Source: Thermotogota bacterium (lineage in GTDB: Bacteria > Thermotogota > Thermotogae > MWEM01). Taken from it: DNA of 64,000 nucleotides. Below are positions 2,718 to 17,468 of this stretch, piece by piece. A model generated the notes under the pieces. The model ran no database searches. It was not told the origin of the DNA and saw only the letters and a program-made list of their open reading frames with translations. The stretch spans positions 1,030 through 65,029 of the forward strand of contig DAINPP010000009.1 of assembly GCA_036743375.1 (NCBI GenBank), read 5' to 3'. The translations under genes were made by a program, and so were the position numbers. Numbering within the stretch: position 1 is the stretch's first letter; each line of letters starts with the position of its first letter.

Positions 2718-5360
2718 TTAGCCCTGCTTTATTTTCAGGGGATTTTTCAATATGGAAAAGACTGCGCTGAGAAAGACCAATGAGACAAAGGCGGCTACAA
2801 GCATAGAGATACCCGTCAGAGAACCAAATTCTCTCACGATCCCTATATCGGAAAAGGATAAGGCAAAGAAGCCGAATGCAACGGATAAGGCATTGTAAAT
2901 AACCGCCTTACCACTCGTTCTGAGTGTTCTTCTAACCGCATCGACCGAAATACCCGTTTTTGAATATTCTACTCTGAACCGGTTGACAAAATGGATGGCG
3001 TAATCAATCCCCGCTCCTATTGCGATGGCTGCTATAGAGATGGTGGCCGTGTTAAGTGAAATACCGAGCAACCCCATGATCTCGAAATTCAGAATAACGG
3101 TAAGGGCACTTGGTACAACACCAATAAGCGCAATTTTCAACGATCTAAACTGCAGCAGGAAGAGAAGGAACACTATCGCTATCGTCATGAACATGGATTC
3201 GTACTGATCGTTGAACAGCATATCCTGAATATGCAGCAATATCTGTTCAGAACCCGTCTGTGAAAGACTGACTGAGTCCCCCTCTCCGGGAAGATAAACC
3301 ATTTCCTGTGAAACGGGTAGAAGCCCTGTGATCGTTGTCCGTGAAACCTCCGTTCCAAGCAATTCTGCAAAATACGCGATTTTCCACTCCCTTATCTTGA
3401 CAAAAAGCAAATTGTCAAGATCGTAAGCCAGATCTTCATAATAGTCCGTCGTCCCTTCCAATGCGGCCGACAAAAGATCATAATCATAGTCATCCATCCG
3501 CAGCATGCTGTCCATAACGGCTGTCCTGTTAGTCTCATCGAGGAGATAGTCACCGAAATCATTTGCCTGTGAAATGAGTTCATCAAGTTCCTTCTCATTT
3601 TCAGAGAACAGGGTACCAATTGGCAAATTGAGCGTATTTAAAAATTTCTCCGCATAATCCGCTTCCGAAACATCAACGTATTCGGAATAGAAAGCGGATA
3701 TTTCCGCACTGTCAGCAGCCGAAATGTTCACCGTTTTAAAGGAAGCCGGTTTTGAATCAAGTATCTTCTGTATATCGTTTATAATTACTTCATTGCTCAT
3801 TCTGGATTCAACATCGAAGGAAACTTGAATGATCCCCCTTGTAAAATCCCTGTTTATCAGCTGATAAATGGCATCGTTGTTCTCCATGAAAAACCAGAGA
3901 TTATCGGTCTCATCCCTCGAAGAGGGGACACATTCCGTTCCGCAGAATGACTTTGACAACTTGGCCATGATATCGGCGATCGAATACGTCTCGTTAACAC
4001 CTTCTATCTGTAGTATTTCCTGCTCAACACCGTACATCATCTGCATCGTTACCGGATTTTTAAAATCCCCCCTCACATCGATAAATATGGCTCCGTTCCC
4101 ACCAAAATTGTCACCGATATATTCCGCATCACGGATGATTCTTTCATCCGGATTAATCGAATTGATAATATCCATATCCGTTTTAAGGTTGATGGCAAAC
4201 GGTACCATAACCGCAACGATTCCGAGAAGAATGCCGATGACGAGATAGGGATTGAGGAGTTTTTCAGGTATCTTCAATCCGGAGGCCTCACTTCTTGTCT
4301 TCCGCGTTTTCATCGCTTCAAGAACACTCGGTACAAATATCAATGCAAGAAGATTGGCAAGCAATACACCGACGGCGGAAAAGATTCCGAGCGTACACAC
4401 CGGGTTGATATCGGCTGTAAGCAGTGACAGAAAACCGACGGCAGTGGTCAGTCCGCTGAGTATGACCGCTATCCCGACATCTTTTTCGGTATTTATGATC
4501 TTCTCCTCCTTAGTCCCCGTTTCCTCCGTATATTTGTTGATAATATGGATGGAATAAGCCGTACCGATACTGATCAGCACAACCGGTATGACCGAATTGG
4601 CAACGGTCAGTGGGATATTCAGAAGGGAAATGATCCCCATGGTCCAGACAACACTGATAGAAACGGTTAAAAGCGGTAAGAAGGCTCCAAGAAAACTCCT
4701 GAAACTGATCAGCAACGTGAAGAAGATGATGAGGATGGCGATGGGAATCAACTTGGTCAGATTTCTTTTCGCTATACTTTCTACGGCGTTGTTAACGGGT
4801 GAGACACCGTAATAATGAAAATGATCCCCATACTTTTTATCAAGTGCTTCCCTGATCGTTCCGTAAACATTTTTCGTGTCCATCCCCTCTTTGATCGAAA
4901 AGGTGATAAGGGAAGATTTACCATCATTGGAGATGAATTTTCCGACGATGGAATCATGCTGAAGGACATCCCGTACGGTGATTGACCCATTTGCAATTTC
5001 GTCTGAAAGCGTTATCACTTCTATCCCATAATCTGAAATATTGACAATGGGCATATTACTTAAAGAGGATACACTCTGTACATCGGTCCTTTCAGATAAA
5101 TATCCCGTTATTTCATTGATTTTTATCAGATCCGTATTATCCTCGATATCCATGCCGATCATTACAAGCGATCCAATACCAAACTCTTCTGAAAGATCCG
5201 TAAAATGGGATACAAACGGATCGGATTGTGGTGGATATTTGGTGATATCATCATCAAATTTAAGTCCTAACGATTTCCAGCCAAAAAACAGTGTCAGTAA
5301 TGCCACCGCAATAATGAGCATCACCCTGTACCTGACAATAAATTTACCAAGTCTTTCCAT
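2718..5360 (-). CDS. MMPL/RND family transporter
   Basis: 880 aa with two TM repeats; motifs SIGTAYSIHI, GLTTAVGFLSL, GAGIDYAIHF, NALSVAFGF. Acidic insertion in the second extracytoplasmic loop. Confidence 0.93.
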   Translation of the reverse strand: MERLGKFIVRYRVMLIIAVALLTLFFGWKSLGLKFDDDITKYPPQSDPFVSHFTDLSEEFGIGSLVMIGMDIEDNTDLIKINEITGYLSERTDVQSVSSLSNMPIVNISDYGIEVITLSDEIANGSITVRDVLQHDSIVGKFISNDGKSSLITFSIKEGMDTKNVYGTIREALDKKYGDHFHYYGVSPVNNAVESIAKRNLTKLIPIAILIIFFTLLISFRSFLGAFLPLLTVSISVVWTMGIISLLNIPLTVANSVIPVVLISIGTAYSIHIINKYTEETGTKEEKIINTEKDVGIAVILSGLTTAVGFLSLLTADINPVCTLGIFSAVGVLLANLLALIFVPSVLEAMKTRKTRSEASGLKIPEKLLNPYLVIGILLGIVAVMVPFAINLKTDMDIINSINPDERIIRDAEYIGDNFGGNGAIFIDVRGDFKNPVTMQMMYGVEQEILQIEGVNETYSIADIMAKLSKSFCGTECVPSSRDETDNLWFFMENNDAIYQLINRDFTRGIIQVSFDVESRMSNEVIINDIQKILDSKPASFKTVNISAADSAEISAFYSEYVDVSEADYAEKFLNTLNLPIGTLFSENEKELDELISQANDFGDYLLDETNRTAVMDSMLRMDDYDYDLLSAALEGTTDYYEDLAYDLDNLLFVKIREWKIAYFAELLGTEVSRTTITGLLPVSQEMVYLPGEGDSVSLSQTGSEQILLHIQDMLFNDQYESMFMTIAIVFLLFLLQFRSLKIALIGVVPSALTVILNFEIMGLLGISLNTATISIAAIAIGAGIDYAIHFVNRFRVEYSKTGISVDAVRRTLRTSGKAVIYNALSVAFGFFALSFSDIGIVREFGSLTGISMLVAAFVSLVFLSAVFSILKNPLKIKQG

Positions 5361-5639: not shown

Positions 5640-6542
5640 TTATTCGTTAATCCAATCAAAGACTTCTCGTTTGTCGATGGTTGCCAGTGCGATATAATTA
5701 TCTGCCGCACCATAATGGACATAATACTGATCTTTGTACTCAACCAGTGCATCGGTAAAGACTACCTGAGGCACACCACCGAATATCTCCCAATCTTCCT
5801 TTGGTTCCAGTATTGGTTTTTCCGTTCGCTTGAGTACTTTTGACGGATCATCGGCGTCGAGAAGCATGAATCCGAGTCTGTAGGTCAGTCTTGCGGGATG
5901 CGGCGCATGTTTCTGTACGGCATGATAGCAAAGCAGCCAGCCATAAGGGGTCTTGACTGGGGGACCACCGGCGCCTATCTTTTCATTTTCCCATTCATTA
6001 TCTATCGGTTTCGCCACGATCTTGTGATCCTGCCAGTGAATGAGATCATCCGAACAGGCGATCCAGATATTCGGCGGATCCCTGTGAAGCATGACATACT
6101 TGCCGTTTATCTTTTCAGGAAACAGAACCGCATCTTTATCCGGATCGTATTCCGGCAGGATGATCCCATGTCGCTCCCATGTGATAAAGTTTTTCGTTGA
6201 GGCCAGCGCCACTTTGATATCCGTTGGAGAATAAGCCGTATAGGTCATGTAATATCTGTCCTCAATCCTTGTCAATCGGGGATCCTCCACGCCATAAAGC
6301 TCTTCGGGCCTTTCAGGAGAAAAGACAGGTTTTTCCATCCGGTTAAAATGCAGGCCATCCGTACTGACGGCATATCCCATTCTGGAGACCATATCGGCTC
6401 CCTGTGCCCGATAAAGCATATGAAACAACTCTCCGTCGTACACGACAGCCGGGTTGAAAACATATTTGGATTCCCAGAGATGCATCGGATTCGGCGCAAA
6501 CAACGGATTTAAAGGACTTCTTTTCAATTCAATTCTCATCAT
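5640..6542 (-). CDS. Glycoside hydrolase family 130 (probable beta-mannoside phosphorylase)
   Basis: Motifs VFNPAV, LYRAQ, GVEDPR, KDAVLFPEKING, LHR, KIGAG, YH, VVF, YGAAD. Basic/His/Tyr positions associated with phosphate binding appear retained. Confidence 0.93.
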   Translation of the reverse strand: MMRIELKRSPLNPLFAPNPMHLWESKYVFNPAVVYDGELFHMLYRAQGADMVSRMGYAVSTDGLHFNRMEKPVFSPERPEELYGVEDPRLTRIEDRYYMTYTAYSPTDIKVALASTKNFITWERHGIILPEYDPDKDAVLFPEKINGKYVMLHRDPPNIWIACSDDLIHWQDHKIVAKPIDNEWENEKIGAGGPPVKTPYGWLLCYHAVQKHAPHPARLTYRLGFMLLDADDPSKVLKRTEKPILEPKEDWEIFGGVPQVVFTDALVEYKDQYYVHYGAADNYIALATIDKREVFDWINE

Positions 6543-6566: not shown

Positions 6567-7400
6567 TTATTTAAACGATATCGATATTCCCTGAAGGAAA
6601 TATTTTCTGAATACCAGAAACAGGATGACCATTGGAAGGGTTTGGATAACAGAACCTGCCAGTACCGGTCCGAGCTGATTCGCGTACTCATGATTGAAGC
6701 TTGCCAGTAGCACCGAAAGGGGCATCTTATCATAATCCCGGATGAGTATCAGCGGCGTGAGAAAATTATCCCAGATGCCGATAAAGGTAAACAATCCCAC
6801 GATACTTGCCGTAGAACGGGTCAAAGGCAACATGATGGAAAAGATGATACGTATCTCGCCTGCCCCCTCCATCCTCGCCGCCTCTATATAATCGTTCGGA
6901 ATATTTCTGAAACTCTGCGTAAACATGAATACCCCCCATGCACCAAAAAGTGACGGAACGATAAGGCTGGCCAGGGTATTCAACATACCTAGCGACTTGA
7001 TGACGACAAAGGTAGGAATGGTAAACATGAAGCCCGGAAACAGCATCTGAAAGATCGTAAAATTCTTCAGAATCGTTCCTCCGAGGAATTTAAACTTGGC
7101 TATCGCATAGCCTACAAAGGAGGAAGTGAGTACGACACTGAACGTTACGGTCACGGAAATAATCACACTGTTCATAAGTGATCTGAAAAAATCTCTTTCC
7201 ATCTGATTGGTCGTATCAAAGATAAATTTAAAGTTATCCAATGTAAATTGGCTGGGCCACAGATTGGCATAGATCTCATTCTGAGGTTTGACCGAAGACA
7301 ATGTCAGCCAGATATAGGGATAAAGCCATACAAGTGCCAGAATGAGCATAATGATCTCAAACAGGGCAACACCTATCTTCTTTCGTGTCTTGTTCATCAT
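6567..7400 (-). CDS. Carbohydrate ABC transporter permease (MalG-like)
   Basis: EAA motif DYIEAARMEGA and 6 TM segments. Start at 7400 gives an ATGA overlap with the upstream permease stop. Confidence 0.92.
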   Translation of the reverse strand: MMNKTRKKIGVALFEIIMLILALVWLYPYIWLTLSSVKPQNEIYANLWPSQFTLDNFKFIFDTTNQMERDFFRSLMNSVIISVTVTFSVVLTSSFVGYAIAKFKFLGGTILKNFTIFQMLFPGFMFTIPTFVVIKSLGMLNTLASLIVPSLFGAWGVFMFTQSFRNIPNDYIEAARMEGAGEIRIIFSIMLPLTRSTASIVGLFTFIGIWDNFLTPLILIRDYDKMPLSVLLASFNHEYANQLGPVLAGSVIQTLPMVILFLVFRKYFLQGISISFK

Positions 7401-8290
7401 ACAAAGTTCACTTCCTTCTCTATGAGTTTTCTGACAAGGAATATACATCCAAAACTTATTGCTGCCGCAAAGATACTGATAACAGCCGCATATCCGGGTC
7501 CTGTAGAAGTGAATTTTCTGAACGCATTATCATAGATATACATCATAAACATATAAGTTCTCTTCATAGGACCCCCACCGGTTATCATATAAGGTTCCGT
7601 AAAAATGCCGAAAGACATCGTGATCTGCATGACAAGAACCATAACCATGGAAGGATTGAGAAGAGGCAGTGTTATCTTTGTGAATTGTTTGAATTTACCG
7701 GCACCATCAAGTTTTGCAGCCTCATAGAGCGATTTTGGAATAGCACCGAGTCCCGCGAGGAATATGAGTCCGTAATAACCGAGGAATTTCCAGGAGACCA
7801 TGAGGGCTATGGCAAGGATAGCGAGCTGTGGTCTGGTAAACCACGGGATTGTAAATCCGAACACCTGGTAAAGAAATCGGTTAAGCGGTCCACTTTCAGA
7901 CAGGAGCTTCTGGAAAACGATCGAGTAGCTGACCCCCGAAGAGATATTGGCGATAAGGAAGGAAAGGACGACAAAGGTCTTGAAATACTTCAGCCGGTTG
8001 AAGGCCATTCCAAGCAAAATGGATCCCAGCAGTGAAATCGGTATGAAATAAAGCATGAAGTTGAACGTATTTCCGAGAACGAGCCAGAACGTTTCATCCG
8101 TGATGACCCGGGTAAAATTATCAAAGCCTATGAATTTCGGTGGTGTTAAATAATTCCATTTCACGAACATCAGATATCCAAGCCAGCCAAAGGCGTAACA
8201 GAAGAATATCGACTGATGAACGATATACGGAGAAATAAGACCCCAGCCTTTTAAAGAATCTATTCTCTCAAGTTTACTCTTTCTTTTCGT
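7397..8290 (-). CDS. Carbohydrate ABC transporter permease (MalF-like); probable start at ACG 8290
   Basis: EAA motif SLYEAAKLDGA. The frame stays open 40 codons upstream of ATG 8170 (TKRKSKLERIDSLKGWGLISPYIV..., first TM helix) to an ACG located 7-8 nt after the SD AAGGAGG. Confidence 0.85.
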   Translation of the reverse strand, partial: TKRKSKLERIDSLKGWGLISPYIVHQSIFFCYAFGWLGYLMFVKWNYLTPPKFIGFDNFTRVITDETFWLVLGNTFNFMLYFIPISLLGSILLGMAFNRLKYFKTFVVLSFLIANISSGVSYSIVFQKLLSESGPLNRFLYQVFGFTIPWFTRPQLAILAIALMVSWKFLGYYGLIFLAGLGAIPKSLYEAAKLDGAGKFKQFTKITLPLLNPSMVMVLVMQITMSFGIFTEPYMITGGGPMKRTYMFMMYIYDNAFRKFTSTGPGYAAVISIFAAAISFGCIFLVRKLIEKEVNFV

Positions 8291-8316
8291 AAGATTTCCT
8301 CCTTTATAAAAAGATA

Positions 8317-8339
8317 CTCCCCCCTTAAACAGGGGGGAG
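8317..8339 (-). terminator. Intercistronic hairpin after the solute-binding protein gene
   Basis: CTCCCCCCT-TAAAC-AGGGGGGAG 9-bp stem; typical mRNA-stabilising or attenuating stem in ABC operons. Confidence 0.6.
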
Positions 8340-8348
8340 AAAGATCAC

Positions 8349-9605
8349 TTAAAACAGCTCTCTGTTTATCTTCTTAATGGCGTTGTTGATAATCTGATCG
8401 GCCGGCATATCCACAAGATAGATCGGTTCGGTAAGATCCGTTGTCATGACGTCCTGCACTTCCGTTGTCTTTGAAATCAGTGCCGGAGGAACACTGTTCG
8501 GAACAGCCTCAGCATAGGCTTTCATCATCGGATTGGCCTCCAAAATTGGCTGGAACAGTTCATTGGTCGTCAGATCGGCTCTAACGGGCGGAAGACCTGT
8601 TATATCAAACCACAGTTCATCATGTTTCGGATCTGAATAGACCCATTTCATAAATTCCCATGCCGCTTCTTTATGCCTTGAATCTTTAAACATGACCATC
8701 CCTTTTGTATCGGCAAATGTCTTTATCGCCTGATCTTCCGGATAGCTATCCGGAACGGGCGGGTATGCCAGGATGATTTCAGAGGGAAAGATCTCCGGGA
8801 AAAGATTTTCAGCAGAAGGAATTTCCCATGGCCCCATCAGCTGACCCGCCAATCGGCCTGTGTAAAGTGGATTGTCCATCATGTCCATTGAAGTCCAGCC
8901 ATTGTCAAACAACTTCTGTCCATATTCAACAACTGCGTTACCGGCTTCATCGTTGAAGACCGCCTTGTTCTTTTTTGTGTCGATATACGGATGACCGTTA
9001 CTCGCCGCATAATAAAGCGTGATAAAATCATACCATCTGTCCCACCAGTTTTTCCCCTTCAGGTATTCGACAACGTAGACCTCTTTCGGCTTACAGATTT
9101 TTTCTGCCAGTTCATAAACTTCGCTGTAGGTTCTCGGAGGTGTGTCAAATCCCGCTTCGGCGAGCATGTCCTTTCTCCACCAGAAAAGCATCGGATTTGA
9201 ATAAATCGGAAAGACATATGACTTTCCCGAAAATTCCCAACCTTTGACGGCCTCTTCCATCCTTCTCGCGGCAAGGAGCTGATCAAAATCACTGAAATCG
9301 CTGAGCGGCACAAGCTGATCCGCTTCTATCAGCTGAGCGGCAAATCCACTGAATATGTTGGTACAGAGATCGGGGGCCTGTCCCGTAACGATGGCCGTTA
9401 ATATTGCCTCTTCAGAACTTCCCGATGCAGGAATGGTCTTCCATTCTATCTCTATCTCAGGATGAACACCTTTCCATTCTTCCAGAATTGCCTTCCAGAA
9501 TTGTTCCTGATACATGTTCGGGGCCGTCCACAACACTAATTTCTCCGCCAGTACCGGCGTTAACAACATTACCAAGAGAATAAGAATCACAAGATATTTC
9601 TTCAC
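8349..9605 (-). CDS. Sugar ABC transporter solute-binding protein (family 1)
   Basis: Signal peptide MKKYLVILILLVMLLTPVLA, family-1 SBP features (AIVTGQAPD, YVFPIYSNPMLFWWRKD, AAWEFMKW). GTG start at 9605 behind GGAGG. Confidence 0.92.
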   Translation of the reverse strand: MKKYLVILILLVMLLTPVLAEKLVLWTAPNMYQEQFWKAILEEWKGVHPEIEIEWKTIPASGSSEEAILTAIVTGQAPDLCTNIFSGFAAQLIEADQLVPLSDFSDFDQLLAARRMEEAVKGWEFSGKSYVFPIYSNPMLFWWRKDMLAEAGFDTPPRTYSEVYELAEKICKPKEVYVVEYLKGKNWWDRWYDFITLYYAASNGHPYIDTKKNKAVFNDEAGNAVVEYGQKLFDNGWTSMDMMDNPLYTGRLAGQLMGPWEIPSAENLFPEIFPSEIILAYPPVPDSYPEDQAIKTFADTKGMVMFKDSRHKEAAWEFMKWVYSDPKHDELWFDITGLPPVRADLTTNELFQPILEANPMMKAYAEAVPNSVPPALISKTTEVQDVMTTDLTEPIYLVDMPADQIINNAIKKINRELF

Positions 9606-9630
9606 CCGCAACACCTCCATATGTGTTAAG

Positions 9631-10629
9631 CTAAAGACTGCTGTCTCTTTTTATAAAACTCGTGTGCAATGAGATCTTTATCGGATGTACATTCTCATCG
9701 TACAGGAGTTGCCTGATACGCTCAACCGCGAGATCACCCATCTCATATCTGTAAACCTTCACAGTAGACAGGGAAGGGGACATCGTCGATGCAAACACGG
9801 CATCATCAAAACCCGCCAGGGCTATTTCATCCGGGACCTTATAACCCGCCTTATGAAAAAAAGTCATAATCTTCTTTGCCATACTGTCATTTCCGGCAAA
9901 AATACAATCCGGCATCCCCTCATTCTTAAAGATCTGCGGAAGCAGTAGATTAAAATCATCGTTGATATCATCACATTGAAAGGTCCTCGGGAAGAACCCA
10001 TATTGCTTCATGGCATCACGATACCCTTCATATCGGTCCTTGAATCCGTAATGCAGAAGTGGTCCATGGATATGAAAGATTCTGCTGTATCCCTCTTCTA
10101 TCAGATGGGTAACACAACTAACGGCCCCATCATATCCATTTGATACCACACTGTCCACACTGCACCCCTTCAGATGCTGATCGACGAGTATAAAAGTCTT
10201 TTCACATGCCCGGAATAACAGAACATCTTCTTCGGTCACATCCCCACCTATCAGAAGAAATGCATCATAGTCGGAACTGATCTGCTTTCTCTGGTCTTCA
10301 AGCATGAGTATGTTAACGGTCATATTCAACTTGCCGGCCTTTTCCTTTATCCCTCTGAAAACCGTCGTATAAAAACCATCTCCAAGAAAATCCCTGCCGT
10401 CATTTTTCTCATAGTTCAGTATTCTTTCACTGAATACCGCCCCAATTCTGAAATTTTTTCTCCTTGCAAGGCCTGAAGCGGTTTTTGACGGGGTATATTC
10501 AAGTTCCTCTATCACCTTCTGTACAATCTTTCTCGTCTCTTCGGAAACATATCCCTTTCCGCTGATTACCCTCGAAACGGTGGCGGTAGATACGCCGGCA
10601 AGTCTGGCTACATCATTTATACTTGACAT
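9631..10629 (-). CDS. LacI family transcriptional regulator
   Basis: N-terminal HTH SINDVARLAGVSTATVSRVI, hinge YTPSKTASGL, C-terminal VPDEIALAGFDD. Confidence 0.95.
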   Translation of the reverse strand: MSSINDVARLAGVSTATVSRVISGKGYVSEETRKIVQKVIEELEYTPSKTASGLARRKNFRIGAVFSERILNYEKNDGRDFLGDGFYTTVFRGIKEKAGKLNMTVNILMLEDQRKQISSDYDAFLLIGGDVTEEDVLLFRACEKTFILVDQHLKGCSVDSVVSNGYDGAVSCVTHLIEEGYSRIFHIHGPLLHYGFKDRYEGYRDAMKQYGFFPRTFQCDDINDDFNLLLPQIFKNEGMPDCIFAGNDSMAKKIMTFFHKAGYKVPDEIALAGFDDAVFASTMSPSLSTVKVYRYEMGDLAVERIRQLLYDENVHPIKISLHTSFIKRDSSL

Positions 10630-10644
10630 ATTCCCTCCTGTATA

Positions 10645-10658
10645 TGTAAACGCTTACA
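10645..10658. promoter_or_regulatory. LacI-type operator TGTAAACGCTTACA
   Basis: Near-palindrome with CG centre; on the minus strand it directly follows an extended -10 (TGTGTATAAT) upstream of the LacI gene. Confidence 0.8.
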
Positions 10659-10945
10659 CAATTATACACAAATAAAAAAGGCTATTCTATTCTTTTTTCA
10701 ACGATTTATCATAAATTATAACTGATTATAACCATTTATATAAATATTTCTTCTTATTTGGGAATATTATGAATGATATAAGCTTCTTTCTTTATATTGC
10801 ATCTTATTTCTTTGATATTCATCAATATTCTTCCAAAAAATAAGTTTTTCGAATCTAATGAACGATATCGAATCAATTTCTGACTATTTTGTTGGATATG
10901 AGTGTTTGCCGAAATCATAGGCAGAGTTATATCATGTTTATGTTG

Positions 10946-10959
10946 TGAAAGCGTTTACA
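10946..10959. promoter_or_regulatory. LacI-type operator TGAAAGCGTTTACA
   Basis: Same motif as 10645-10658 (reverse complement differs at one position), about 30 bp upstream of the divergent 10990 gene. Confidence 0.78.
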
Positions 10960-10989: not shown

Positions 10990-12342
10990 ATGAAGAAGAA
11001 TCGTATTGCTATCGTTTTATTCATCATTATTGCGGTCTGTCTGACTTTTGCGGAGACAGTCGAACTCCGGGTTAATGCGGAAACACTCACCGGTGATCCG
11101 GTTGCATACCGAATCTATATGTACGAAGCACTCGAACTGATCCCCGAAGATTTTGATGCCAATTGGGATTCCCTCAGGGTCTTTGATGCGGAGGAAAATG
11201 AAATTCCCTATCAGATCGACGATCTTGACGGAAACGGCAAACTGTCAGCACATGATATGCTCAGTTTCTTCATGACAGGAACGGCAAAAATGGTTATCAG
11301 TGATGATCTCTCATTGGATAGACCTGAATACGACGCAGTTCTCAGCGTAAACGAAGTAGATGGAGAATTCATCGTTACTGGCGGAGAACTCGATGCTGAA
11401 GTAAAGATCGACAATCATGGATTTGCAAATTACGTTAATTACAGGAATTTTGAAGAAGCCGTATACACCGAACTCGGAATCATGAGAATAGCCGGTTGGA
11501 AAGGCAGCACATTCTGGGCCGATGGGCAGCTTGGGAACAAACATGAAGAAAAGACTTCCTATAATTTTAAGGTGAATGAAATGGAATTCGTCAATTCCGG
11601 TCCCGTTGGTGCCACTTTTGTTTCCGATCTCGAATCAGAGACATTTATAGGCGTTCATCAGATCCTTATCACACAGGTCATGGCAAATGGCGAATGTTTT
11701 GTGGAATCCAATATCATCTTTGAAACCTACACGGATCTCATGAAATTACAGGAGATGTCCACAAAGGCGCTCACAAGCGTAGATATGGAGACACTCAAGC
11801 ATATCATGCCCCTGCCGAGAAGACTTGTATGGGCGGAACAGCTCAATTCAAGCTCATTTGATTACTGGAACGACAGAGAGGCTATAGAAATCGTGAATGG
11901 ACAGCCTTATGTCTGTTTTGATGCACTCGATGCCATGAAACCACTCTGGTGGGGAGCAACCTACATCTACTCCTCCCCGGAAAGCTGGAGGGGAAATTAC
12001 TCTGAAGATCTCGGTGCCTGTGCTTATTCCATTTCCGTTGAAAAGCCGCTTGTATATGCCAATTTCAACGATTTTGTCATGGGCAACACATGGGTATACG
12101 AAAGTAGAGAGTTCAGAGATGGTCTCTTCAGGTGGATGCCCGCGGAATTCAATGCCTTTGAGACAACCGAGGGAAACGTTTCAACGGATACCGTTGACTG
12201 TGTCGCTCATTTCTTCCCGGGAGATAACGTCGTATTCAGAAAGGTGTACGGATTCACCGATGGTTTCGCCAACACAGCGGATGCCATAGGATATCTTGAA
12301 GCAAGGGCAGTGGAGATCGAATCGATCACACTTGCGGAATAA
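10990..12342 (+). CDS. Secreted protein of unknown function (N-terminal segment resembles DUF4861-type proteins)
   Basis: SD AAGGAGG then ATG 10990; signal peptide ending CLTFA; motif LRVFDAEENEIPYQIDDLDGNG (DxDGNG Ca-binding-like); aromatic-rich beta-type C-terminus. Confidence 0.75.
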   Translation: MKKNRIAIVLFIIIAVCLTFAETVELRVNAETLTGDPVAYRIYMYEALELIPEDFDANWDSLRVFDAEENEIPYQIDDLDGNGKLSAHDMLSFFMTGTAKMVISDDLSLDRPEYDAVLSVNEVDGEFIVTGGELDAEVKIDNHGFANYVNYRNFEEAVYTELGIMRIAGWKGSTFWADGQLGNKHEEKTSYNFKVNEMEFVNSGPVGATFVSDLESETFIGVHQILITQVMANGECFVESNIIFETYTDLMKLQEMSTKALTSVDMETLKHIMPLPRRLVWAEQLNSSSFDYWNDREAIEIVNGQPYVCFDALDAMKPLWWGATYIYSSPESWRGNYSEDLGACAYSISVEKPLVYANFNDFVMGNTWVYESREFRDGLFRWMPAEFNAFETTEGNVSTDTVDCVAHFFPGDNVVFRKVYGFTDGFANTADAIGYLEARAVEIESITLAE

Positions 12343-12379: not shown

Positions 12380-12420
12380 AAAAAAAAGGGGGATATCTTC
12401 TCTTCATCCCCCCCTTTTTC
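12380..12420 (+). terminator. Intrinsic terminator
   Basis: AAAAAGGGGGAT...ATCCCCCCCTTTTT stem plus T tract after the 10990 gene. Confidence 0.6.
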
Positions 12421-12585: not shown

Positions 12586-14886
12586 ATGAAAATCAAGAAA
12601 ATTCTGATTCTGACACTGACAGTTCTTCTGACAACGGCCGCTTTTTCAGCTGTTTTTCCTCAAAGGGAATCCCATCTCATGTTCCTCAGAAAAGAAATGT
12701 CCGTCGAAGGCAACCTGAAGACAGGTTATATCATCTATGCAGATAAAAGGGAAGGCAGATATGTGCATACCGACGCCGGGAGTGAAGGAATCTCATGTGT
12801 CGATGATACGGCCAGAGCGGGTATTTATTTCCTGAACATGTATGAAAACACAAGGGAAAAAGACAGTCATGCCGCACAGAGATACCGGGAACTCTTCCTT
12901 GAAACCCTTGATTTCTGCGATGCATTCAGAACCCGAACAGGGGATTATTATAATTTCATCTTTGAAAACGGTGAAATCAACAAAAGGGGAATCACAAGCA
13001 GAACCTCTGCAAACTGGTGGGCCTTGAGGGCTTTATGGCTACTGTCACAGTCTTTAACCGTCATTGAAGATTCCGAAGATTTCAACACGGAGAAGATTTA
13101 TGATGAGGCGGAGCAGACTGCAACCCTGTTTGTTCAGGAGCTTGATGCGACCGGGCTGATCAGGGGATACGCCGATCTTTCCGCGCTTTATGTCATATCA
13201 CTTGCCAACCTCTACGAATTTTCAGGAGAATCAAAATGGCTTGAGTTGATCCGTCAGGTCAGCGATGGTCTGCTCGGTAAAAGAGCCCATTTTATCTTCG
13301 ATGGGATCATCGACGAGGGAACGGAGAAATTTATTTTTCACAGCTGGGGAAGCAGGCAGGTTCAAGCTCTCGCAATGGCATTTACAGCCACACACGACGA
13401 CAAATACCTTGAGGCGGCAAAAGACATGGCCGATTCTCTGTACACTCACATGATCAACCTCGGGCCTTTCTATGATTATGATACAGAAAATTTCAACCTG
13501 TTTTCACAGATCGCCTATGGAACGGAAGCCGCTGTGACCTCGCTTTATCAACTGTATCAGATCACAGGGGATGAAGCGTATGCCTGGCTTCTCGCACTCA
13601 ACGCGGGGTTTTTCAGCGGGAATAATCAGCTGCAAAGGGCCATGACAGGAGAAAATGGGGAAGGCTATGACGGACTCGAGAAGGTCTTCATCAACACGAA
13701 TTCCGGTGCGGAATCCACCATCTCCTATCTACTTTCCATGTCTCTTGTAGACAGATTACCCGAAACCATTCGAAGATTTGCTGAAATGAAGCCGGTTCAT
13801 CAATCCGAACCGCTCCTGATAGAAGCGGAAAACATGGATTCAGGATTATCGAGTTGCGATACCGAGAACATAAACGGATTCAACGGTGTATCGGGCCGTT
13901 CATTCAAGCTGAAGGAAACCTTTACACTTAATCGGGGTACCTATGATATCTTCCTGTTTGGAACAGGGCTGAAGGATTCTGAGATCAAATTCTATCTGGG
14001 TAAAGAAACCATAGGAAAAAATATCCTGTCCGATACGGATCATTATCTCGGCAGAATAAAAAACACAGCGGATGAGGAAGTCAGAATCATTTTTTCAGGT
14101 AAATCGGAAGAAAAAATCTTTCTCAATCAGATCTTATGCCTGCCCGTCATCGAATATCAGGTGTTCAATGTTAACGGCATTAATTACCTTGCCGCATTCA
14201 ACACCTCTGATGAAGAGATGGAATTTAACTATCAGCCGATTGAAAAAAAGGGGTATCTCCTCTCGGAAGCCAATTTCGATATTGATGAAAAAGAGACTGC
14301 TGAGCAATCCGTCTATGAAGTCGGTTCAACCGAAGTCCATTCCGGATATATCGTTCTTAAACTGAATGCCTTCATGGATAACAACGGCATAGGCATGCCG
14401 GTTAATCCCGGAAATTACGATAATCTCGGAGGAAAGGCGGGGGCTTATTATCCGGAGGAAAAAATTCGCGGACTGCTTACAGGTGGCTTCCTGTATCCTG
14501 ACGGTATTCCTTTCAGGATCTTACTGGAAGAAAACGACAATCTCATCGCCGGTGGACAACGCTTGATGATAAACGAGACCGGAACGACACTTTATGTTTT
14601 CGGAAGCTGCGATCACGGTAGTTTTAACGGTGATCTTGAAATAGGCTATTCTGATGGTGAAAGAGAATATACCTCATTGAGTTTCCCTGACTGGTGTTCT
14701 GAGATCCGGGATGAAGATTCTATCGCTCTTCAGGTGCCATACAGATACGATTCCAGCGACCTTGAGGAGTGGATAGCGCCAAAGATCGCGATATGCAAAA
14801 TCCCACTGAAGGGAAAGAAGATCGAATCGATCACAATACCTGAAATTCCGACAATGCATCTTTTCGGAATAACACTCGGAAAATAA
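12586..14886 (+). CDS. Secreted multidomain putative glycoside hydrolase: six-hairpin (alpha/alpha)6-like domain + CBM-like + C-terminal beta domain
   Basis: Signal peptide; motifs EGISCVDDTARA, WWALRALW, SWGSRQ, QIAYG, GYDGL, NSGAESTISYLLS; then LLIEAEN (CBM6/35-like start) and DNNG...NYDNLG...YYPEE...GIPF...PDW, reminiscent of alpha-mannosidase accessory domains. Confidence 0.65.
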   Translation: MKIKKILILTLTVLLTTAAFSAVFPQRESHLMFLRKEMSVEGNLKTGYIIYADKREGRYVHTDAGSEGISCVDDTARAGIYFLNMYENTREKDSHAAQRYRELFLETLDFCDAFRTRTGDYYNFIFENGEINKRGITSRTSANWWALRALWLLSQSLTVIEDSEDFNTEKIYDEAEQTATLFVQELDATGLIRGYADLSALYVISLANLYEFSGESKWLELIRQVSDGLLGKRAHFIFDGIIDEGTEKFIFHSWGSRQVQALAMAFTATHDDKYLEAAKDMADSLYTHMINLGPFYDYDTENFNLFSQIAYGTEAAVTSLYQLYQITGDEAYAWLLALNAGFFSGNNQLQRAMTGENGEGYDGLEKVFINTNSGAESTISYLLSMSLVDRLPETIRRFAEMKPVHQSEPLLIEAENMDSGLSSCDTENINGFNGVSGRSFKLKETFTLNRGTYDIFLFGTGLKDSEIKFYLGKETIGKNILSDTDHYLGRIKNTADEEVRIIFSGKSEEKIFLNQILCLPVIEYQVFNVNGINYLAAFNTSDEEMEFNYQPIEKKGYLLSEANFDIDEKETAEQSVYEVGSTEVHSGYIVLKLNAFMDNNGIGMPVNPGNYDNLGGKAGAYYPEEKIRGLLTGGFLYPDGIPFRILLEENDNLIAGGQRLMINETGTTLYVFGSCDHGSFNGDLEIGYSDGEREYTSLSFPDWCSEIRDEDSIALQVPYRYDSSDLEEWIAPKIAICKIPLKGKKIESITIPEIPTMHLFGITLGK

Positions 14887-14897
14887 AATCGAAGATG

Positions 14898-14950
14898 ATG
14901 AAAAATGGCTGAAAACGAATACGCTCCGTTCTCAGCCGTTTTTTCATTTT
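14898..14950. terminator. Bidirectional terminator between convergent genes
   Basis: ATGAAAAATGGCTGAAAACG...CGTTCTCAGCCGTTTTTTCAT imperfect stem flanked by A and T tracts. Confidence 0.65.
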
Positions 14951-16050
14951 TTAAATCCGAGAATTGCATCCACAATCTTATCCGATGCATCCCCGTCCCC
15001 AAAAGGATTTGAAGCAATGGACATGGCCCTGTAAAGATAATCATTTCTGATGAGTTCGGAAGCGTGTTTATAGACACTTTCAGTATCGGTTCCTATCAAT
15101 TTGGCCACTCCGGAACTGACAGCCTCAGGCCTTTCAGTCGTTTCCCTGAGTACGAGAACCGGTTTTCCAAGTGCAGGTGCCTCTTCCTGTACACCGCCGG
15201 AATCACTCAGGATGAACTGACAACCGTTCATGAGGGCTACAAACTCCAGATATTCAACGGGATCCAGCAGTATGGTACGTTCCACATCTTTTAATTCCGG
15301 ATAGACAACATCCCGAACAGCGGGATTATAATGAACCGGAAAAACGAGATAATAGTCTTCATTCTCTTCAAGAAGTCTTTTAACGGCCTTCATGGTAGAT
15401 CTCATCTTCTCACCGTGATTTTCCCTCCTATGCATGGTCATGAGTATATATTTCTTTTCTTTCAGATCATATTTATCGATATAGGATTCAAGGACATTCT
15501 TTTTATTTTTAATAACCCACATCAGTGCATCGATAACCGTGTTCCCCGTGATCGAAATACGTTCCTCTTTCACCAGCTCTCTGAGAAGGTTATCCTTCGA
15601 CTTCTGTGTGGGGGCAAAGTGCAGAGTAGCCAGTTTTGAAGTCATACACCGGTTCATCTCCTCCGGAAAGGGATCGTACATCTCAAAAGATCTCAAACCG
15701 GCTTCCACATGCCCGACAGGGACTTTGTTATAAAATCCGATCAGAGAGCCGACAAAGGTAGAAGTTGTATCCCCCTGCGTCAAAAGCCAGTCAAATTCCC
15801 CTTCCCTGATGATCTCATCAAGAGCCGAAGAGAGTCTCCCGGTCAGTCCGGCAAGTGTCTGCCTGTCTTTCATGATATTTAGATCGTAATCCGGTTTTAT
15901 TCCAAACAGCTCCAGTACCTGGTCCAGCATCTCCCGATGCTGAGCCGTGGCAATCACCTGTGCCTCCACCCCTCTCTCTATCAACTTGTGATATAACGGA
16001 GCCATCTTGATGGCTTCAGGTCTTGTACCAAATATCAATCCTACTCTCAA
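14944..16050 (-). CDS. wecB: UDP-N-acetylglucosamine 2-epimerase (non-hydrolysing)
   Basis: IFGTRPEAIKMAP, QHREML, QGDTT, HVEAGLRS, PFPEEMNR, SDSGGVQEEAP, NPFGDGDAS. Confidence 0.96.
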   Translation of the reverse strand: MRVGLIFGTRPEAIKMAPLYHKLIERGVEAQVIATAQHREMLDQVLELFGIKPDYDLNIMKDRQTLAGLTGRLSSALDEIIREGEFDWLLTQGDTTSTFVGSLIGFYNKVPVGHVEAGLRSFEMYDPFPEEMNRCMTSKLATLHFAPTQKSKDNLLRELVKEERISITGNTVIDALMWVIKNKKNVLESYIDKYDLKEKKYILMTMHRRENHGEKMRSTMKAVKRLLEENEDYYLVFPVHYNPAVRDVVYPELKDVERTILLDPVEYLEFVALMNGCQFILSDSGGVQEEAPALGKPVLVLRETTERPEAVSSGVAKLIGTDTESVYKHASELIRNDYLYRAMSIASNPFGDGDASDKIVDAILGFKK

Positions 16051-17468
16051 ACCTCTCCCCCCTCTGATTTTTCTCTTATAAATCTGAAGCAGTTCATATC
16101 GTCACAATTCATAGAAATTCCCTTTTTTTCAAGCCGTTCAAGTGATTCACGTCCGGCGGGATCCGTATACTTGGCCAGATAGGTGGCACTGTGGAGATGA
16201 AGACATTTTAATCCCTTCTGATCTCTTATGCCTCCGATTCCCGCTTCAAGCGCCTGCGCATAGTTCCTGATAAATTCTTCCCCGTTTCTATCCGAGAGGT
16301 ATATCCTGCTCTTTCTGTGTTCTGCGTATTCCACGTTCACCTTGGCATATTCATCCGTATCCTTTAACGGATCCAGTTCACTGATCTGACCGGATTCCTC
16401 CATTTGGGCCAGATGATATTTCAGATGCGGGCAGATCATGTAAAAAGTAGTAGGAAACGGATTTGAGTCCTTGACAGGGTAGCTCTCTATCACCTGAGGA
16501 AATCCATATTTGCATCGCTTTGAACATCTGTAGAAGTTTTCGGGAACCTCTTTCTTTTCCATTTGTCCCGGAATAACCGTCCGATCCATCTTGGAACGGT
16601 TGTATTCATAAACATAAACGACGGATTTTTCCATTGGCACTTCTCCATCGAACAGGGTTGTAAATCCCTGATTCAGCAGGCGGCTGTTCCAGTTGTTAAG
16701 TGAACAGGGAATGGTTGTCTGAAGATATTCACAGTCGTAGCCCTTTGCATATTGTTCAACCATCGGAAGGACATCAGCCATCCAATCTCCCGGTTCCGTC
16801 ATGAGACAGATGGAGAAATTCTCCCGTTCATGTTCGTGCACACCCGCAATCAGTTTGCCTTCATCACATTCAAACAGGAATTTGTTTTCAAGGCAATCGA
16901 GTGAGGGATAAAGCGTCCAGCAATCTATCGCATAATCGCCGGCAGCGAAGAGAAACTTTGAAAATTCATTCTTCCGTCTCGCAATCTCTTCCGGAAAAAT
17001 TGGTCTCACTTTCACCTTAGATTCATCGACTTCCGACACCGTATCGGCAATACGTTTCTCAAAGAAATAAAATGCATTCTTCCTGTCAAAGCAGTATTTT
17101 TCAGCAATATGCATGCTTTCTCCGGACTCTGAAAAGATCAGAGAAAACAAACGGGTAGCACCCGTAAACATTACCGCTTTCATTATTTCGATCATCATGA
17201 GTTTGCCGAGACCTTTTCCGGTATACTCCGGATCAACACGTAGCCCTTCAAGATAGGCATCCTTTCCGTAGATCGTCGCATGATTGACCGCACAGACTTT
17301 ATTGTTATCCATATCCTTCACTATCAGTAGCGGATCTGTTGTATTCATCCATTTGTCCAGAATATACGGGATATAATCATCCCCGTCCCAGATCTTTGAA
17401 GAAAGTTTCAATATTCCTTCAATATCTGACACCGACGGTTTCATCACTTTAAAATTCATCATCATCAC
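16047..17468 (-). CDS. GNAT N-acetyltransferase fused to a C-terminal DUF501 domain
   Basis: N-terminus WDGDDYIP...YLEGLRVDPEYTGKGLGK (acetyl-CoA motif A). C-terminus RCKYGFPQVI...PFPTTFYMICP...GIGG...KCLHLH (DUF501 signatures). Confidence 0.85.
   Translation of the reverse strand: MMMMNFKVMKPSVSDIEGILKLSSKIWDGDDYIPYILDKWMNTTDPLLIVKDMDNNKVCAVNHATIYGKDAYLEGLRVDPEYTGKGLGKLMMIEIMKAVMFTGATRLFSLIFSESGESMHIAEKYCFDRKNAFYFFEKRIADTVSEVDESKVKVRPIFPEEIARRKNEFSKFLFAAGDYAIDCWTLYPSLDCLENKFLFECDEGKLIAGVHEHERENFSICLMTEPGDWMADVLPMVEQYAKGYDCEYLQTTIPCSLNNWNSRLLNQGFTTLFDGEVPMEKSVVYVYEYNRSKMDRTVIPGQMEKKEVPENFYRCSKRCKYGFPQVIESYPVKDSNPFPTTFYMICPHLKYHLAQMEESGQISELDPLKDTDEYAKVNVEYAEHRKSRIYLSDRNGEEFIRNYAQALEAGIGGIRDQKGLKCLHLHSATYLAKYTDPAGRESLERLEKKGISMNCDDMNCFRFIREKSEGGEV

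What the first reader, a model, noticed from the sequence alone, without database searches (positions are those of the whole stretch)
12586..14886. Secreted six-hairpin-like protein: candidate new glycoside hydrolase family
Seen: the motif set CVDDTARA...WG...GYDGL...NSGAESTISYL plus two accessory beta domains and a signal peptide. From recall, the DDxARA/NxGAEST motifs mark an uncharacterised helical-barrel domain often fused to GT4 and found near GH130 genes; here it has no GT4, is exported, and carries CBM-like and mannosidase-accessory-like modules. Inference: an extracellular mannoside-active enzyme feeding the ABC/GH130 route, with the DD pair and the AES Glu as candidate catalytic residues.
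Basis: partly seen in the sequence, partly recalled or inferred. Interest (0 to 1): 0.65.

Follow-up and report, generated by a model that had tools for sequence, protein, structure and literature searches.

The report
Uncharacterised secreted six-hairpin enzyme, β-1,2-mannoside locus
This gene encodes an exported three-domain protein whose helical-barrel domain belongs to a large enzyme-like family of unknown function that almost always sits beside β-1,2-mannoside phosphorylase genes, so it is a good candidate for the missing enzyme that cuts β-1,2-mannans outside the cell.

Summary
ORF 12586-14886 (+) encodes a 766-aa protein with a Sec-type signal peptide, an (α/α)6-barrel domain carrying the CVDDTARA, WG, GYDGL and NSGAESTISYL motifs, and two β domains. 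The barrel fits no Pfam or NCBIfam family. Its only close relative with a structure is 7TEM (Yersinia pestis YPO2471), which has no assigned function. The family is large (3,220 cluster representatives) and mostly exported. E67, D73, D74, R77, N123, R148, Y311, N347, D362 and E376 are ≥99% conserved.

The gene lies in a conserved LacI-controlled module with an ABC importer and a GH130. GH130 is present in 15/15 Thermotogota and 18/20 other-phyla loci with adequate flanks. 80 of 84 neighbouring GH130s carry the published E/K signature of β-1,2-mannoside specificity. The 7TEM orthologue and distant GT4-fused relatives also neighbour GH130.

The most likely function is an extracytoplasmic glycoside hydrolase of a new family that releases β-1,2-manno-oligosaccharides for import and phosphorolysis. 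This rests on context and conservation, not on biochemistry.

The separate upstream partner protein is the one with the mutarotase/GH38-accessory-like fold.

The parts
12586..14886 (+). Target gene: 766-aa exported three-domain protein
   Evidence: ORF; AF2 model pLDDT 85.3; 19 full-length homologues, all Thermotogota
12586..12651 (+). Signal peptide (residues 1-22, predicted cleavage after FSA)
   Evidence: Sequence inspection. About 116 of 145 family members with an N-terminal barrel have Sec or lipoprotein-like leaders by a crude test.
12661..13785 (+). N-terminal β-extension plus (α/α)6 barrel (residues 26-400), 7TEM/YPO2471 family. Invariant residues: E67, D73, D74, R77, N123, W145, R148, Y311, N347, D362, E376.
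   Evidence: 7TEM phmmer E=5e-25, profile E=3e-157, Foldseek TM 0.82 / rmsd 2.7; conservation
13798..14265 (+). Middle β-sandwich domain (residues ~405-560), function unknown (possible carbohydrate-binding module)
   Evidence: AF2 all-β segment; no PDB or Pfam relative; found in 39 of 175 related proteins
14308..14883 (+). C-terminal AziU2-like β domain (residues ~575-766)
   Evidence: Profile vs PDB: AziU2/Azi28 E=6e-24; Foldseek 7wuw TM 0.75; occurs as 3-6 tandem repeats in Rib-domain surface proteins
10990..12342 (+). Conserved upstream partner (about 450 aa from the likely true start): signal-anchored galactose-mutarotase-like β-supersandwich with an EF-hand-like Ca loop
   Evidence: Adjacent in all Thermotogota loci and present in Bacillota loci; AF2 pLDDT 91.5; Foldseek hits to GH38 C-terminal domains, PL26, LacZ domain 5 and GalM
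10946..10959 (.). LacI-type operator TGAAAGCGTTTACA upstream of the partner/target unit
   Evidence: Exact motif match; 0 of 100 shuffles reach the observed count; position conserved in most Thermotogota loci
10645..10658 (.). LacI-type operator TGTAAACGCTTACA upstream of the lacI-SBP-permease-GH130 operon
9631..10629 (-). LacI-family regulator
   Evidence: Pfam LacI + Peripla_BP_3; conserved in the module
8349..9620 (-). ABC solute-binding protein
   Evidence: Pfam SBP_bac_1; best PDB hit Listeria Lmo0859, E=3e-72
6567..8170 (-). Two ABC permease genes (the upstream one probably starts further 5' than the ORF call)
   Evidence: Pfam BPD_transp_1
5640..6542 (-). GH130, predicted β-1,2-mannoside phosphorylase (E86/K136 signature, catalytic D87, H153-R154)
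   Evidence: PDB 9FJ8 1,2-β-oligomannan phosphorylase E=5e-89 and 7FIP β-1,2-mannobiose phosphorylase E=6e-86; E/K rule from PMC7660257

Best explanation
The protein is an exported enzyme. Its N-terminal (α/α)6 barrel founds, or belongs to, a still-uncharacterised glycoside-hydrolase-like family (the YPO2471/7TEM family). It most likely cleaves a β-1,2-mannoside-containing glycan outside the cytoplasm. The resulting β-1,2-manno-oligosaccharides are bound by the cluster's solute-binding protein, imported by the ABC permeases, and phosphorolysed by the cytoplasmic GH130 to mannose-1-phosphate. The whole module is controlled by the cluster's LacI repressor through two shared operators.

The invariant carboxylates D73/D74, D362 and E376 sit at the N-terminal ends of the inner helices, which is the usual catalytic face of six-hairpin enzymes. 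They are the candidate acid/base residues. R77, R148, N123, N347, W145 and Y311 are candidate substrate-binding residues. The middle β-sandwich and the AziU2-like C-terminal domain are probably glycan-binding or surface-tethering modules specific to Thermotogota. The mutarotase-like partner may assist as a second subunit.

Shown here: domain anatomy, family membership, conservation, gene-cluster and operator conservation, and the β-1,2 signature of the GH130s. Inferred: hydrolysis, substrate identity, catalytic roles of residues, and the roles of the accessory domains and the partner.
For: - Fold and family: AF2 model; 7TEM as the only close structure; only sub-threshold hairpin-level similarity to GH127, GH88, GH9 and GH76.
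- Active-site-like conservation: 145 diverse members and 46 stand-alone members keep E67, D73, D74, R77, N123, R148, Y311, N347, D362 and E376. GT4-fused relatives keep all of these except E67, which lies in the N-terminal extension they lack, and Y311, which is Ile in four of the seven.
- The conserved residues fall at the starts of helices 72, 144, 196, 258, 310 and 375.
- Export: the leader here, and in about 80% of members by a crude test.
- Context: the 7-gene module is conserved at 30-63% identity while the flanks differ. GH130 is present in 15/15 Thermotogota and 18/20 other-phyla loci with at least 6 kb flanks, median 585 nt away in the latter.
- Specificity: 80/84 neighbouring GH130s carry the E/K β-1,2 signature. 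The window GH130 is closest to characterised β-1,2-oligomannan and β-1,2-mannobiose phosphorylases.
- The 7TEM orthologue locus has SBP, permeases, GH130 and PMM. GT4 fusions are adjacent to GH130, plus PMM-like and mannose-P-isomerase-like genes in L085.
- Conserved paired LacI operators.
- No source gives the family a functional name, and no β-1,2-mannanase was found in the literature.
Against: - No biochemical data exist for any member.
- CAZy/dbCAN membership could not be checked.
- The invariant N/R/Y/H set would also suit a lyase or an isomerase.
- GT4-fused cytoplasmic relatives show the domain is not restricted to extracellular depolymerisation.
- The Yersinia-type locus has an E/R GH130 (β-1,3, or the Lin0857-type β-1,2 group) and a probable periplasmic location, so the substrate may be an oligosaccharide rather than a polymer, and the linkage may vary.
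- In this window a terminator-like hairpin (12381-12419) separates partner and target, and no operator lies directly upstream of the target.
- No natural source of β-1,2-mannan is known for these habitats (PMC4264767).
Confidence: 0.5

Rival explanations
1. The barrel is a glycosidase or transglycosylase of the same pathway, but it cuts a bond other than the β-1,2-mannosidic one. For example, it could release β-1,2-oligomannoside chains from a carrier (a phosphodiester-linked or core-linked heteroglycan, or a glycolipid), or act on β-1,3 linkages in some lineages.
For: Two invariant arginines (R77, R148) could bind an anionic group. The Yersinia-type locus also carries GH13-like and DUF1861 genes and an E/R GH130. 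Three of 84 neighbouring GH130s are E/R. GT4 fusions suggest a processing role in biosynthesis.
Against: 80/84 GH130 partners are E/K. Most loci contain no other glycosidase that could perform the β-1,2 endo-cleavage.
Confidence: 0.2
2. The barrel is a non-hydrolytic carbohydrate enzyme on the GH130 route. It could be an AGE/cellobiose-2-epimerase-like epimerase or isomerase (a known GH130 partner in β-1,4-mannan catabolism), or an (α/α)n polysaccharide lyase.
For: Foldseek finds AGE-family epimerases and glucose-2-epimerase at TM 0.5-0.64. Invariant N, R and Y plus a 90%-conserved His resemble lyase or epimerase catalytic sets. The pairing of cellobiose 2-epimerase with GH130 is established knowledge.
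Against: The protein is exported, whereas known epimerase partners are cytoplasmic. No Pfam AGE hit was found, and no invariant His pair exists within the barrel (H252 is 90% conserved and lost in GT4 fusions). No uronate-catabolism genes are in the loci. Identity to AGE structures is only 13-14%.
Confidence: 0.13
3. The protein is non-catalytic: a surface glycan-binding or capture protein that hands substrate to the ABC system, or a structural toga or surface protein.
For: There are two accessory β domains. The C-terminal module recurs in Rib-domain surface proteins. No activity has been shown for any member.
Against: Invariance of four carboxylates across phyla, and in cytoplasmic GT4 fusions, is atypical for a binding module. 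Most family members are the bare barrel (114 of 175).
Confidence: 0.07

Closest known systems
YPO2471 'putative exported protein' of Yersinia pestis (PDB 7TEM, structural genomics)
   Same: Same family: E=5e-25 pairwise and 3e-157 to the family profile; TM 0.82, rmsd 2.7 Å; the DD-ARA, WW-R, QIAY, DG and NSGAESTIE motifs are conserved; exported. Its 93%-identical orthologue lies in a LacI/SBP/permease/GH130 locus.
   Different: 7TEM is the bare barrel (about 425 aa) with no middle or C-terminal domains. It has no assigned function and no paper was found. Its locus has an E/R GH130, GH13-like and DUF1861 genes, an OMP-like gene and PMM.
Endo-β-1,2-glucanase systems (GH144/GH162 six-hairpin enzyme + ABC importer + GH94 sophoro-oligosaccharide phosphorylase). 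Recalled from established knowledge, not tested here.
   Same: Same proposed logic: an extracytoplasmic (α/α)6 endo-enzyme makes β-1,2-oligosaccharides, an ABC transporter imports them, and a cytoplasmic phosphorylase degrades them.
   Different: The sugar is glucose, not mannose. No detectable sequence relationship was seen (these families are not among the Pfam or PDB hits). The phosphorylase family is GH94, not GH130.
Thermoanaerobacter sp. X-514 β-1,2-mannoside cluster (Teth514_1785-1796; PMC4264767)
   Same: The GH130 here is closest to Teth514_1788/1789-type enzymes. That cluster also combines an ABC importer, GH130s, a GT4 and hypothetical proteins.
   Different: That cluster encodes a GH5 and a mannose-1-phosphate guanylyltransferase and was proposed as a GDP-mannose salvage route. 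Whether its hypothetical or GT4 proteins contain this barrel was not testable here.
GH127/GH146, GH9, GH88, GH76 six-hairpin glycosidases and AGE-family epimerases
   Same: Same overall (α/α)6 fold (Foldseek), with weak similarity in one helix-hairpin (residues 259-336).
   Different: All Pfam scores are below the gathering thresholds. Identity is 8-14%. Their catalytic signatures were not detected: C71 (88% conserved) is the only well-conserved Cys, and there is no invariant His pair inside the barrel.
AziU2/Azi28 (subunit of the AziU3/U2 aziridine-forming complex, PDB 7WUW/8GS1)
   Same: The C-terminal domain is homologous (profile E=6e-24; TM 0.75).
   Different: Here it is a C-terminal appendage of a secreted glycan enzyme. 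Elsewhere it is a tandem repeat in surface proteins. The W of the invariant D-W pair is replaced (F) in AziU2. No link to aziridine chemistry is implied.

Membership tests
YPO2471/7TEM six-hairpin family (unnamed; no Pfam or NCBIfam model) | Significant full-domain sequence homology to 7TEM and family profile | tested here: met
   phmmer E=4.8e-25 over residues 10-397. A profile of 46 members hits 7TEM at 2.7e-157, and the window protein matches that family profile at 6e-101.
YPO2471/7TEM six-hairpin family (unnamed; no Pfam or NCBIfam model) | Same fold as 7TEM | tested here: met
   Foldseek E=1e-20, TM(target) 0.82, rmsd 2.7 Å over 399 columns
YPO2471/7TEM six-hairpin family (unnamed; no Pfam or NCBIfam model) | Invariant motif set: EG..(C)VDD.AR, NF, WW..R, QIAY, N, G...DG, N.NSGAEST | tested here: met
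   All present in the window protein
Glycoside hydrolase (any CAZy GH family) | Assignment by CAZy/dbCAN family model | not testable with these tools
   No dbCAN or CAZy library was available. The Pfam GH models GH127, GH88, GH9 and GH76 are all below gathering score.
Glycoside hydrolase (any CAZy GH family) | Demonstrated glycosidic-bond hydrolysis with carboxylate acid/base residues in a pocket | not testable with these tools
GH127/GH146 β-L-arabinofuranosidase | Pfam PF07944 above gathering score; Cys nucleophile and Cys3-Glu zinc site (from knowledge) | tested here: not met
   19.8-22.2 bits against a cut-off of 24.9, covering only residues 259-335. C71 (88% conserved) is the only well-conserved Cys.
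GH9 / GH76 / GH88 | Pfam model above gathering score over the catalytic domain | tested here: not met
   Only 4, 2 and 5 of 46 members give weak hits. PDB profile hits to GH76 have E of 0.009-0.26 on one hairpin.
AGE superfamily epimerase/isomerase (e.g. cellobiose 2-epimerase) | Sequence-model match, and a conserved catalytic His pair in the barrel (from knowledge) | tested here: not met
   No AGE Pfam hit. Only structural similarity at TM 0.5-0.64 and 13-14% identity. H252 is 90% conserved and replaced in GT4 fusions; H30 lies outside the barrel.
GH130 β-1,2-mannoside phosphorylase (the neighbouring gene 5640-6542, not the target) | PF04041 match; catalytic Asp; phosphate-binding basic residues; E/K linkage pair (PMC7660257) | tested here: met
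   Pfam E=1.3e-87; 9FJ8 and 7FIP E about 1e-89 and 1e-86; E86, D87, K136, H153-R154
AziU2-like β domain (C-terminal module) | Sequence and fold homology to AziU2/Azi28 | tested here: met
   Profile E=5.8e-24 over the full domain; Foldseek TM 0.75
Carbohydrate-binding module (middle domain) | Homology to a known CBM family | tested here: inconclusive
   β-sandwich in the model, but no Pfam or PDB sequence match. A domain-level fold search was not possible.

The most novel reading that the evidence does not exclude
The 7TEM/YPO2471 barrel is the catalytic module of a new glycoside hydrolase family whose activity is endo-β-1,2-mannanase (or β-1,2-manno-oligosaccharide hydrolase/transglycosylase). 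No such enzyme could be found described. It would be the missing first step of a widespread bacterial β-1,2-mannan utilisation pathway. In the GT4-fused form it would be part of a bacterial mannogen-like β-1,2-mannan synthesis and turnover system. In Thermotogota and Bacillota it may work as a split enzyme with the mutarotase-like partner, mirroring the supersandwich-plus-barrel build of GH15/65/94/95.
Probability: 0.35. Interest if true: 0.8.

Novelty: new variant of a known kind. Interest (0 to 1): 0.66.

Why it matters
β-1,2-Mannoside phosphorylases (GH130) are known, but the enzyme that produces their substrates, and the natural source of β-1,2-mannan for environmental bacteria, are not (PMC4264767).

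A family of more than 3,000 sequence clusters, with a solved but unannotated structure, co-localises almost obligatorily with β-1,2-type GH130s across about ten phyla. That gives a concrete and testable candidate. Confirmation would:
- found a new GH family;
- assign a function to 7TEM;
- explain a recurrent gene module in Thermotogota, Bacillota, Bacteroidota and Yersinia;
- supply a tool for making or analysing β-1,2-mannosides, which occur as Candida cell-wall epitopes and as Leishmania mannogen.

Tried and rejected
- Pfam and NCBIfam scans of the target, and of 46 family members, gave only sub-threshold generic six-hairpin hits.
- The PDB profile search found nothing beyond 7TEM except hairpin-repeat noise.
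- Literature searches for YPO2471, 7TEM, β-1,2-mannanase, and GH130 context with a six-hairpin domain found no characterisation. The GH130 papers do not discuss this neighbour.
- The supplement of the Thermoanaerobacter paper held nothing on Teth514_1785, 1786 or 1791.
- The middle-domain profile had no PDB relative.
- The AziU3/U2 literature in the library was uninformative about the fold.
- The NCBI name 'sugar phosphotransferase' on truncated Yersinia forms has no HMM support and was set aside.
- The Lmo0859/Lin0857 cluster link could not be verified in the literature.
- No operator was found directly upstream of the target gene.
- Rfam and tRNA scans of the window were empty.
- The MMPL gene (2718-5360) and the UDP-GlcNAc 2-epimerase gene (14944-16050) flank the module here but are not conserved in other loci, so they were excluded.
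Full report
**Observation.** The window contains an ATG-initiated ORF at 12586-14886 (+) of 766 aa.
- C71-VDDTARA
- HSW254-G255-SRQ
- G360-YDGL
- N372-SGAESTISYL

The N-terminus (MKIKKILILTLTVLLTTAAFSA|VF) reads as a Sec signal peptide. An AlphaFold2 model built on 19 full-length homologues is confident (mean pLDDT 85.3, pTM 0.81). After a short β-extension (residues 35-62) it shows about 11 long helices between residues 72 and 388. Two all-β domains follow, at about 405-560 and 575-766.

**What the barrel is.** Pfam gives only sub-threshold matches, all to a single helix-hairpin (residues 259-336): GH127 19.8 bits against a cut-off of 24.9, plus GH88, C5-epimerase and pectate lyase. NCBIfam gives nothing.

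- Against PDB sequences the single significant hit is 7TEM, 'putative exported protein YPO2471' of Yersinia pestis (E=4.8e-25 over residues 10-397), with all motifs aligned.
- Foldseek agrees. 7TEM is the top hit (TM 0.82 to target, rmsd 2.7 Å, 23% identity). Generic (α/α)6 barrels follow at 8-14% identity: GH9, GH127/146, AGE epimerases and complement thioester domains.
- A profile of 46 stand-alone family members hits 7TEM at 2.7e-157. Beyond that it finds only hairpin-repeat noise in GH76 and similar entries. Individually, those members give scattered sub-threshold Pfam hits to GH127, GH88, GH9, GH76 and LanC.
- No paper mentioning YPO2471, or 7TEM as a glycosidase, was found. Every source name is 'hypothetical protein', an automatic 'glycosyl hydrolase', or 'glycosyltransferase' for GT4 fusions.

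The barrel is thus a six-hairpin domain of a distinct, structurally solved but functionally unassigned family.

**Size, architecture and conservation of the family.**
- A profile search of 1.84 billion cluster representatives finds 3,220 proteins at E ≤ 1e-3 and 1,211 at E ≤ 1e-10.
- Among 175 retrieved proteins, 114 are the bare barrel and 33 have the barrel-middle-C-terminal architecture. Every full-length three-domain homologue that could be placed taxonomically is from Thermotogota.
- About 116 of 145 members with an N-terminal barrel have Sec or lipoprotein-type leaders by a crude test.
- Across 145 diverse barrels, the residues E67, G68, D73, D74, R77, N123, W145, R148, Y311, N347, G358, D362, G374 and E376 are ≥99% conserved. 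The numbering printed is one too low; correct numbering is.
- Distant GT4-fused relatives (profile E 1e-33 to 1e-40) lack the N-terminal β-extension. They keep D73, D74, R77, N123, R148, N347, D362, N370, N372 and G374-A375-E376-S377.
- In the model, these residues lie at or just before the starts of helices 72, 144, 196, 258, 310 and 375, that is, every second helix. In six-hairpin enzymes that is the face carrying the active site. This last point is inference from known topology, because coordinates could not be inspected.

**Genomic context.** In the window the gene is preceded by a 465-aa ORF with no annotation. That pair diverges from a lacI-SBP-permease-permease-GH130 operon.

- The same seven genes in the same order occur around homologues at 30-63% identity, while the flanks differ.
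- Among fetched loci with at least 6 kb on both sides, GH130 is present in 15/15 Thermotogota loci and 18/20 loci from other phyla: Bacillota, Bacteroidota, Ignavibacteriota, WOR-3, Stahlbacteria, Calditrichota, Marinimicrobia, Rhodothermota and Flavobacterium. In the other phyla the median distance is 585 nt. An SBP plus permease is present in 32 of those 35 loci.
- The window's GH130 is closest to the solved 1,2-β-oligomannan phosphorylase (9FJ8, E=5e-89) and β-1,2-mannobiose phosphorylase (7FIP, E=6e-86).
- Li et al. (PMC7660257) give a residue-pair rule for GH130 linkage specificity: Y/R for β-1,4, E/K for β-1,2, E/R for β-1,3. The window enzyme is E86/K136, with catalytic D87 and H153-R154.
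- Of 84 GH130 genes neighbouring a barrel gene, 80 are E/K, 3 are E/R and 1 is E/G.
- A protein 93% identical to 7TEM (Yersinia kristensenii type) lies in a locus of PMM, LacI, SBP, two permeases, a GH13-like gene, GH130 (E/R), DUF1861, an OMP-like protein and then the barrel.
- Two GT4-fused relatives are also adjacent to E/K GH130 genes. One of these loci (L085) also has PMM-like and mannose-phosphate-isomerase-like genes.

**Regulation.**
- Two exact LacI-type palindromes lie in the divergent promoter region. TGTAAACGCTTACA (10645-10658) is beside lacI. TGAAAGCGTTTACA (10946-10959) is just upstream of the partner's likely true start, ATG at 10990 with an AAGGAGG ribosome-binding site.
- The same two-site layout is found in most Thermotogota loci, usually as the only matches in about 20 kb.
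- The partner-to-target gap is 0-230 nt in relatives. Here it is 243 nt and contains a terminator-like hairpin at 12381-12419, so co-transcription in this organism is uncertain.

**Accessory parts.**
- **C-terminal domain.** It is homologous to AziU2/Azi28, a subunit of the aziridine-forming complex of azinomycin biosynthesis (profile E=6e-24; Foldseek TM 0.75). The same module occurs as 3-6 tandem copies in large proteins with Rib, PQQ-propeller, GH28 or F5/8-C domains. It has no Pfam model. It is not a mannosidase accessory domain.
- **Middle domain.** It is a β-sandwich beginning 'LIEAENMD' with no detectable relative. 'CBM-like' remains a guess.
- **Upstream partner.** Its model has pLDDT 91.5. 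It is a signal-anchored galactose-mutarotase-like supersandwich resembling accessory domains of GH38 α-mannosidases, PL26, LacZ domain 5 and GalM. It has an EF-hand-like loop. It is found throughout Thermotogota and in the Bacillota loci.
- **Solute-binding protein.** Its best structural relative is Listeria Lmo0859 (E=3e-72).

**Mechanism proposed (confidence about 0.5).** An exported six-hairpin glycosidase cleaves a β-1,2-mannoside-bearing glycan. The SBP and ABC system import the oligosaccharides. GH130 phosphorolyses them to Man1P. LacI controls both transcription units.

Candidate catalytic residues are D73/D74, D362 and E376. The logic parallels the known β-1,2-glucan systems (six-hairpin endo-glucanase + ABC importer + GH94), but that parallel comes from background knowledge, not from a test here.

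Rivals:
- a glycosidase or transglycosylase acting on a different bond of the same substrate (0.2);
- an epimerase, isomerase or lyase (0.13), disfavoured by export, the lack of a His pair and the absence of uronate genes;
- a non-catalytic binder (0.07), disfavoured by invariant carboxylates that persist even in cytoplasmic GT4 fusions.

**Novelty and limits.** The fold and a crystal structure exist, and the GH130 side is known. What is new is the functional assignment and the near-obligate linkage to β-1,2-type GH130s. CAZy membership, pocket geometry and activity could not be tested with the tools available. I rate it a new variant of a known kind (a probable new GH family in the six-hairpin class), with interest about 0.66.

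Noticed in passing
window 14308-14883 (residues ~575-766 of the target): The C-terminal β domain is homologous to AziU2/Azi28 of the aziridine-forming AziU3/U2 complex (E=6e-24). The same module forms 3-6 tandem repeats in large surface proteins with Rib, PQQ-propeller, GH28 or F5/8-C domains. It has no Pfam model, so it is an undescribed and widespread domain family.
   Followed up: partly
window 10990-12342 (+): The conserved upstream partner is a signal-anchored galactose-mutarotase-like supersandwich with an EF-hand-like DxDxNGKLSxxD loop and many invariant aromatic and charged residues. It could be a second subunit of a split supersandwich-plus-barrel enzyme. The ORF caller's GTG start at 10945 overlaps the operator; the real start is probably ATG 10990.
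   Followed up: partly
window 10645-10658 and 10946-10959: A pair of LacI-type operator palindromes lies in the divergent promoter region. The two-site layout is conserved in most Thermotogota loci.
   Followed up: yes
L018, L019, L020, L023-L025, L027, L029, L033, L037 (directly next to the first GH130, on the side away from the permease genes): Kosmotogaceae and Petrotogaceae loci carry a second E/K GH130 paralogue in which the HR phosphate-site motif is replaced by FG or YG. It is possibly a hydrolase-type GH130, or an enzyme with altered phosphate binding.
   Followed up: no
L086 8833-9948: In the Yersinia-type locus, a 371-aa protein with a signal peptide and a C-terminal '...NYIF' lies directly upstream of the 7TEM orthologue. 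It looks like an outer-membrane β-barrel and is possibly an oligosaccharide porin.
   Followed up: no
Protein cluster of P0154 (Yersinia kristensenii / Y. thracica): 218-aa truncated forms of the 7TEM-family protein are named 'sugar phosphotransferase' in NCBI. No NCBIfam model supports this, so the name looks unfounded.
   Followed up: partly
window 7397-8347 (-): The first ABC permease ORF is called at 257 aa, but the frame stays open and conserved with orthologues for about 50 more codons upstream, with no ATG/GTG/TTG called there. It probably uses a different start, or the ORF call is truncated.
   Followed up: partly
window 12381-12419 and 14907-14937: Two terminator-like hairpins: AAAAAAAGGGGGAT/ATCCCCCCCTTTTT after the partner gene, and a 13-bp stem between the convergent target and UDP-GlcNAc 2-epimerase genes.
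   Followed up: no
window 16047-17468 (-): This ORF fuses a GNAT acetyltransferase domain to DUF501. It is not part of the conserved module.
   Followed up: no
window 8349-9620 (-): The cluster's SBP is far closer to Listeria Lmo0859 (PDB 4GQO, E=3e-72) than to any other solved SBP. The locus-tag proximity to the Listeria β-1,2-mannobiose phosphorylase Lin0857 suggests an orthologous cluster, but this was not verified.
   Followed up: partly
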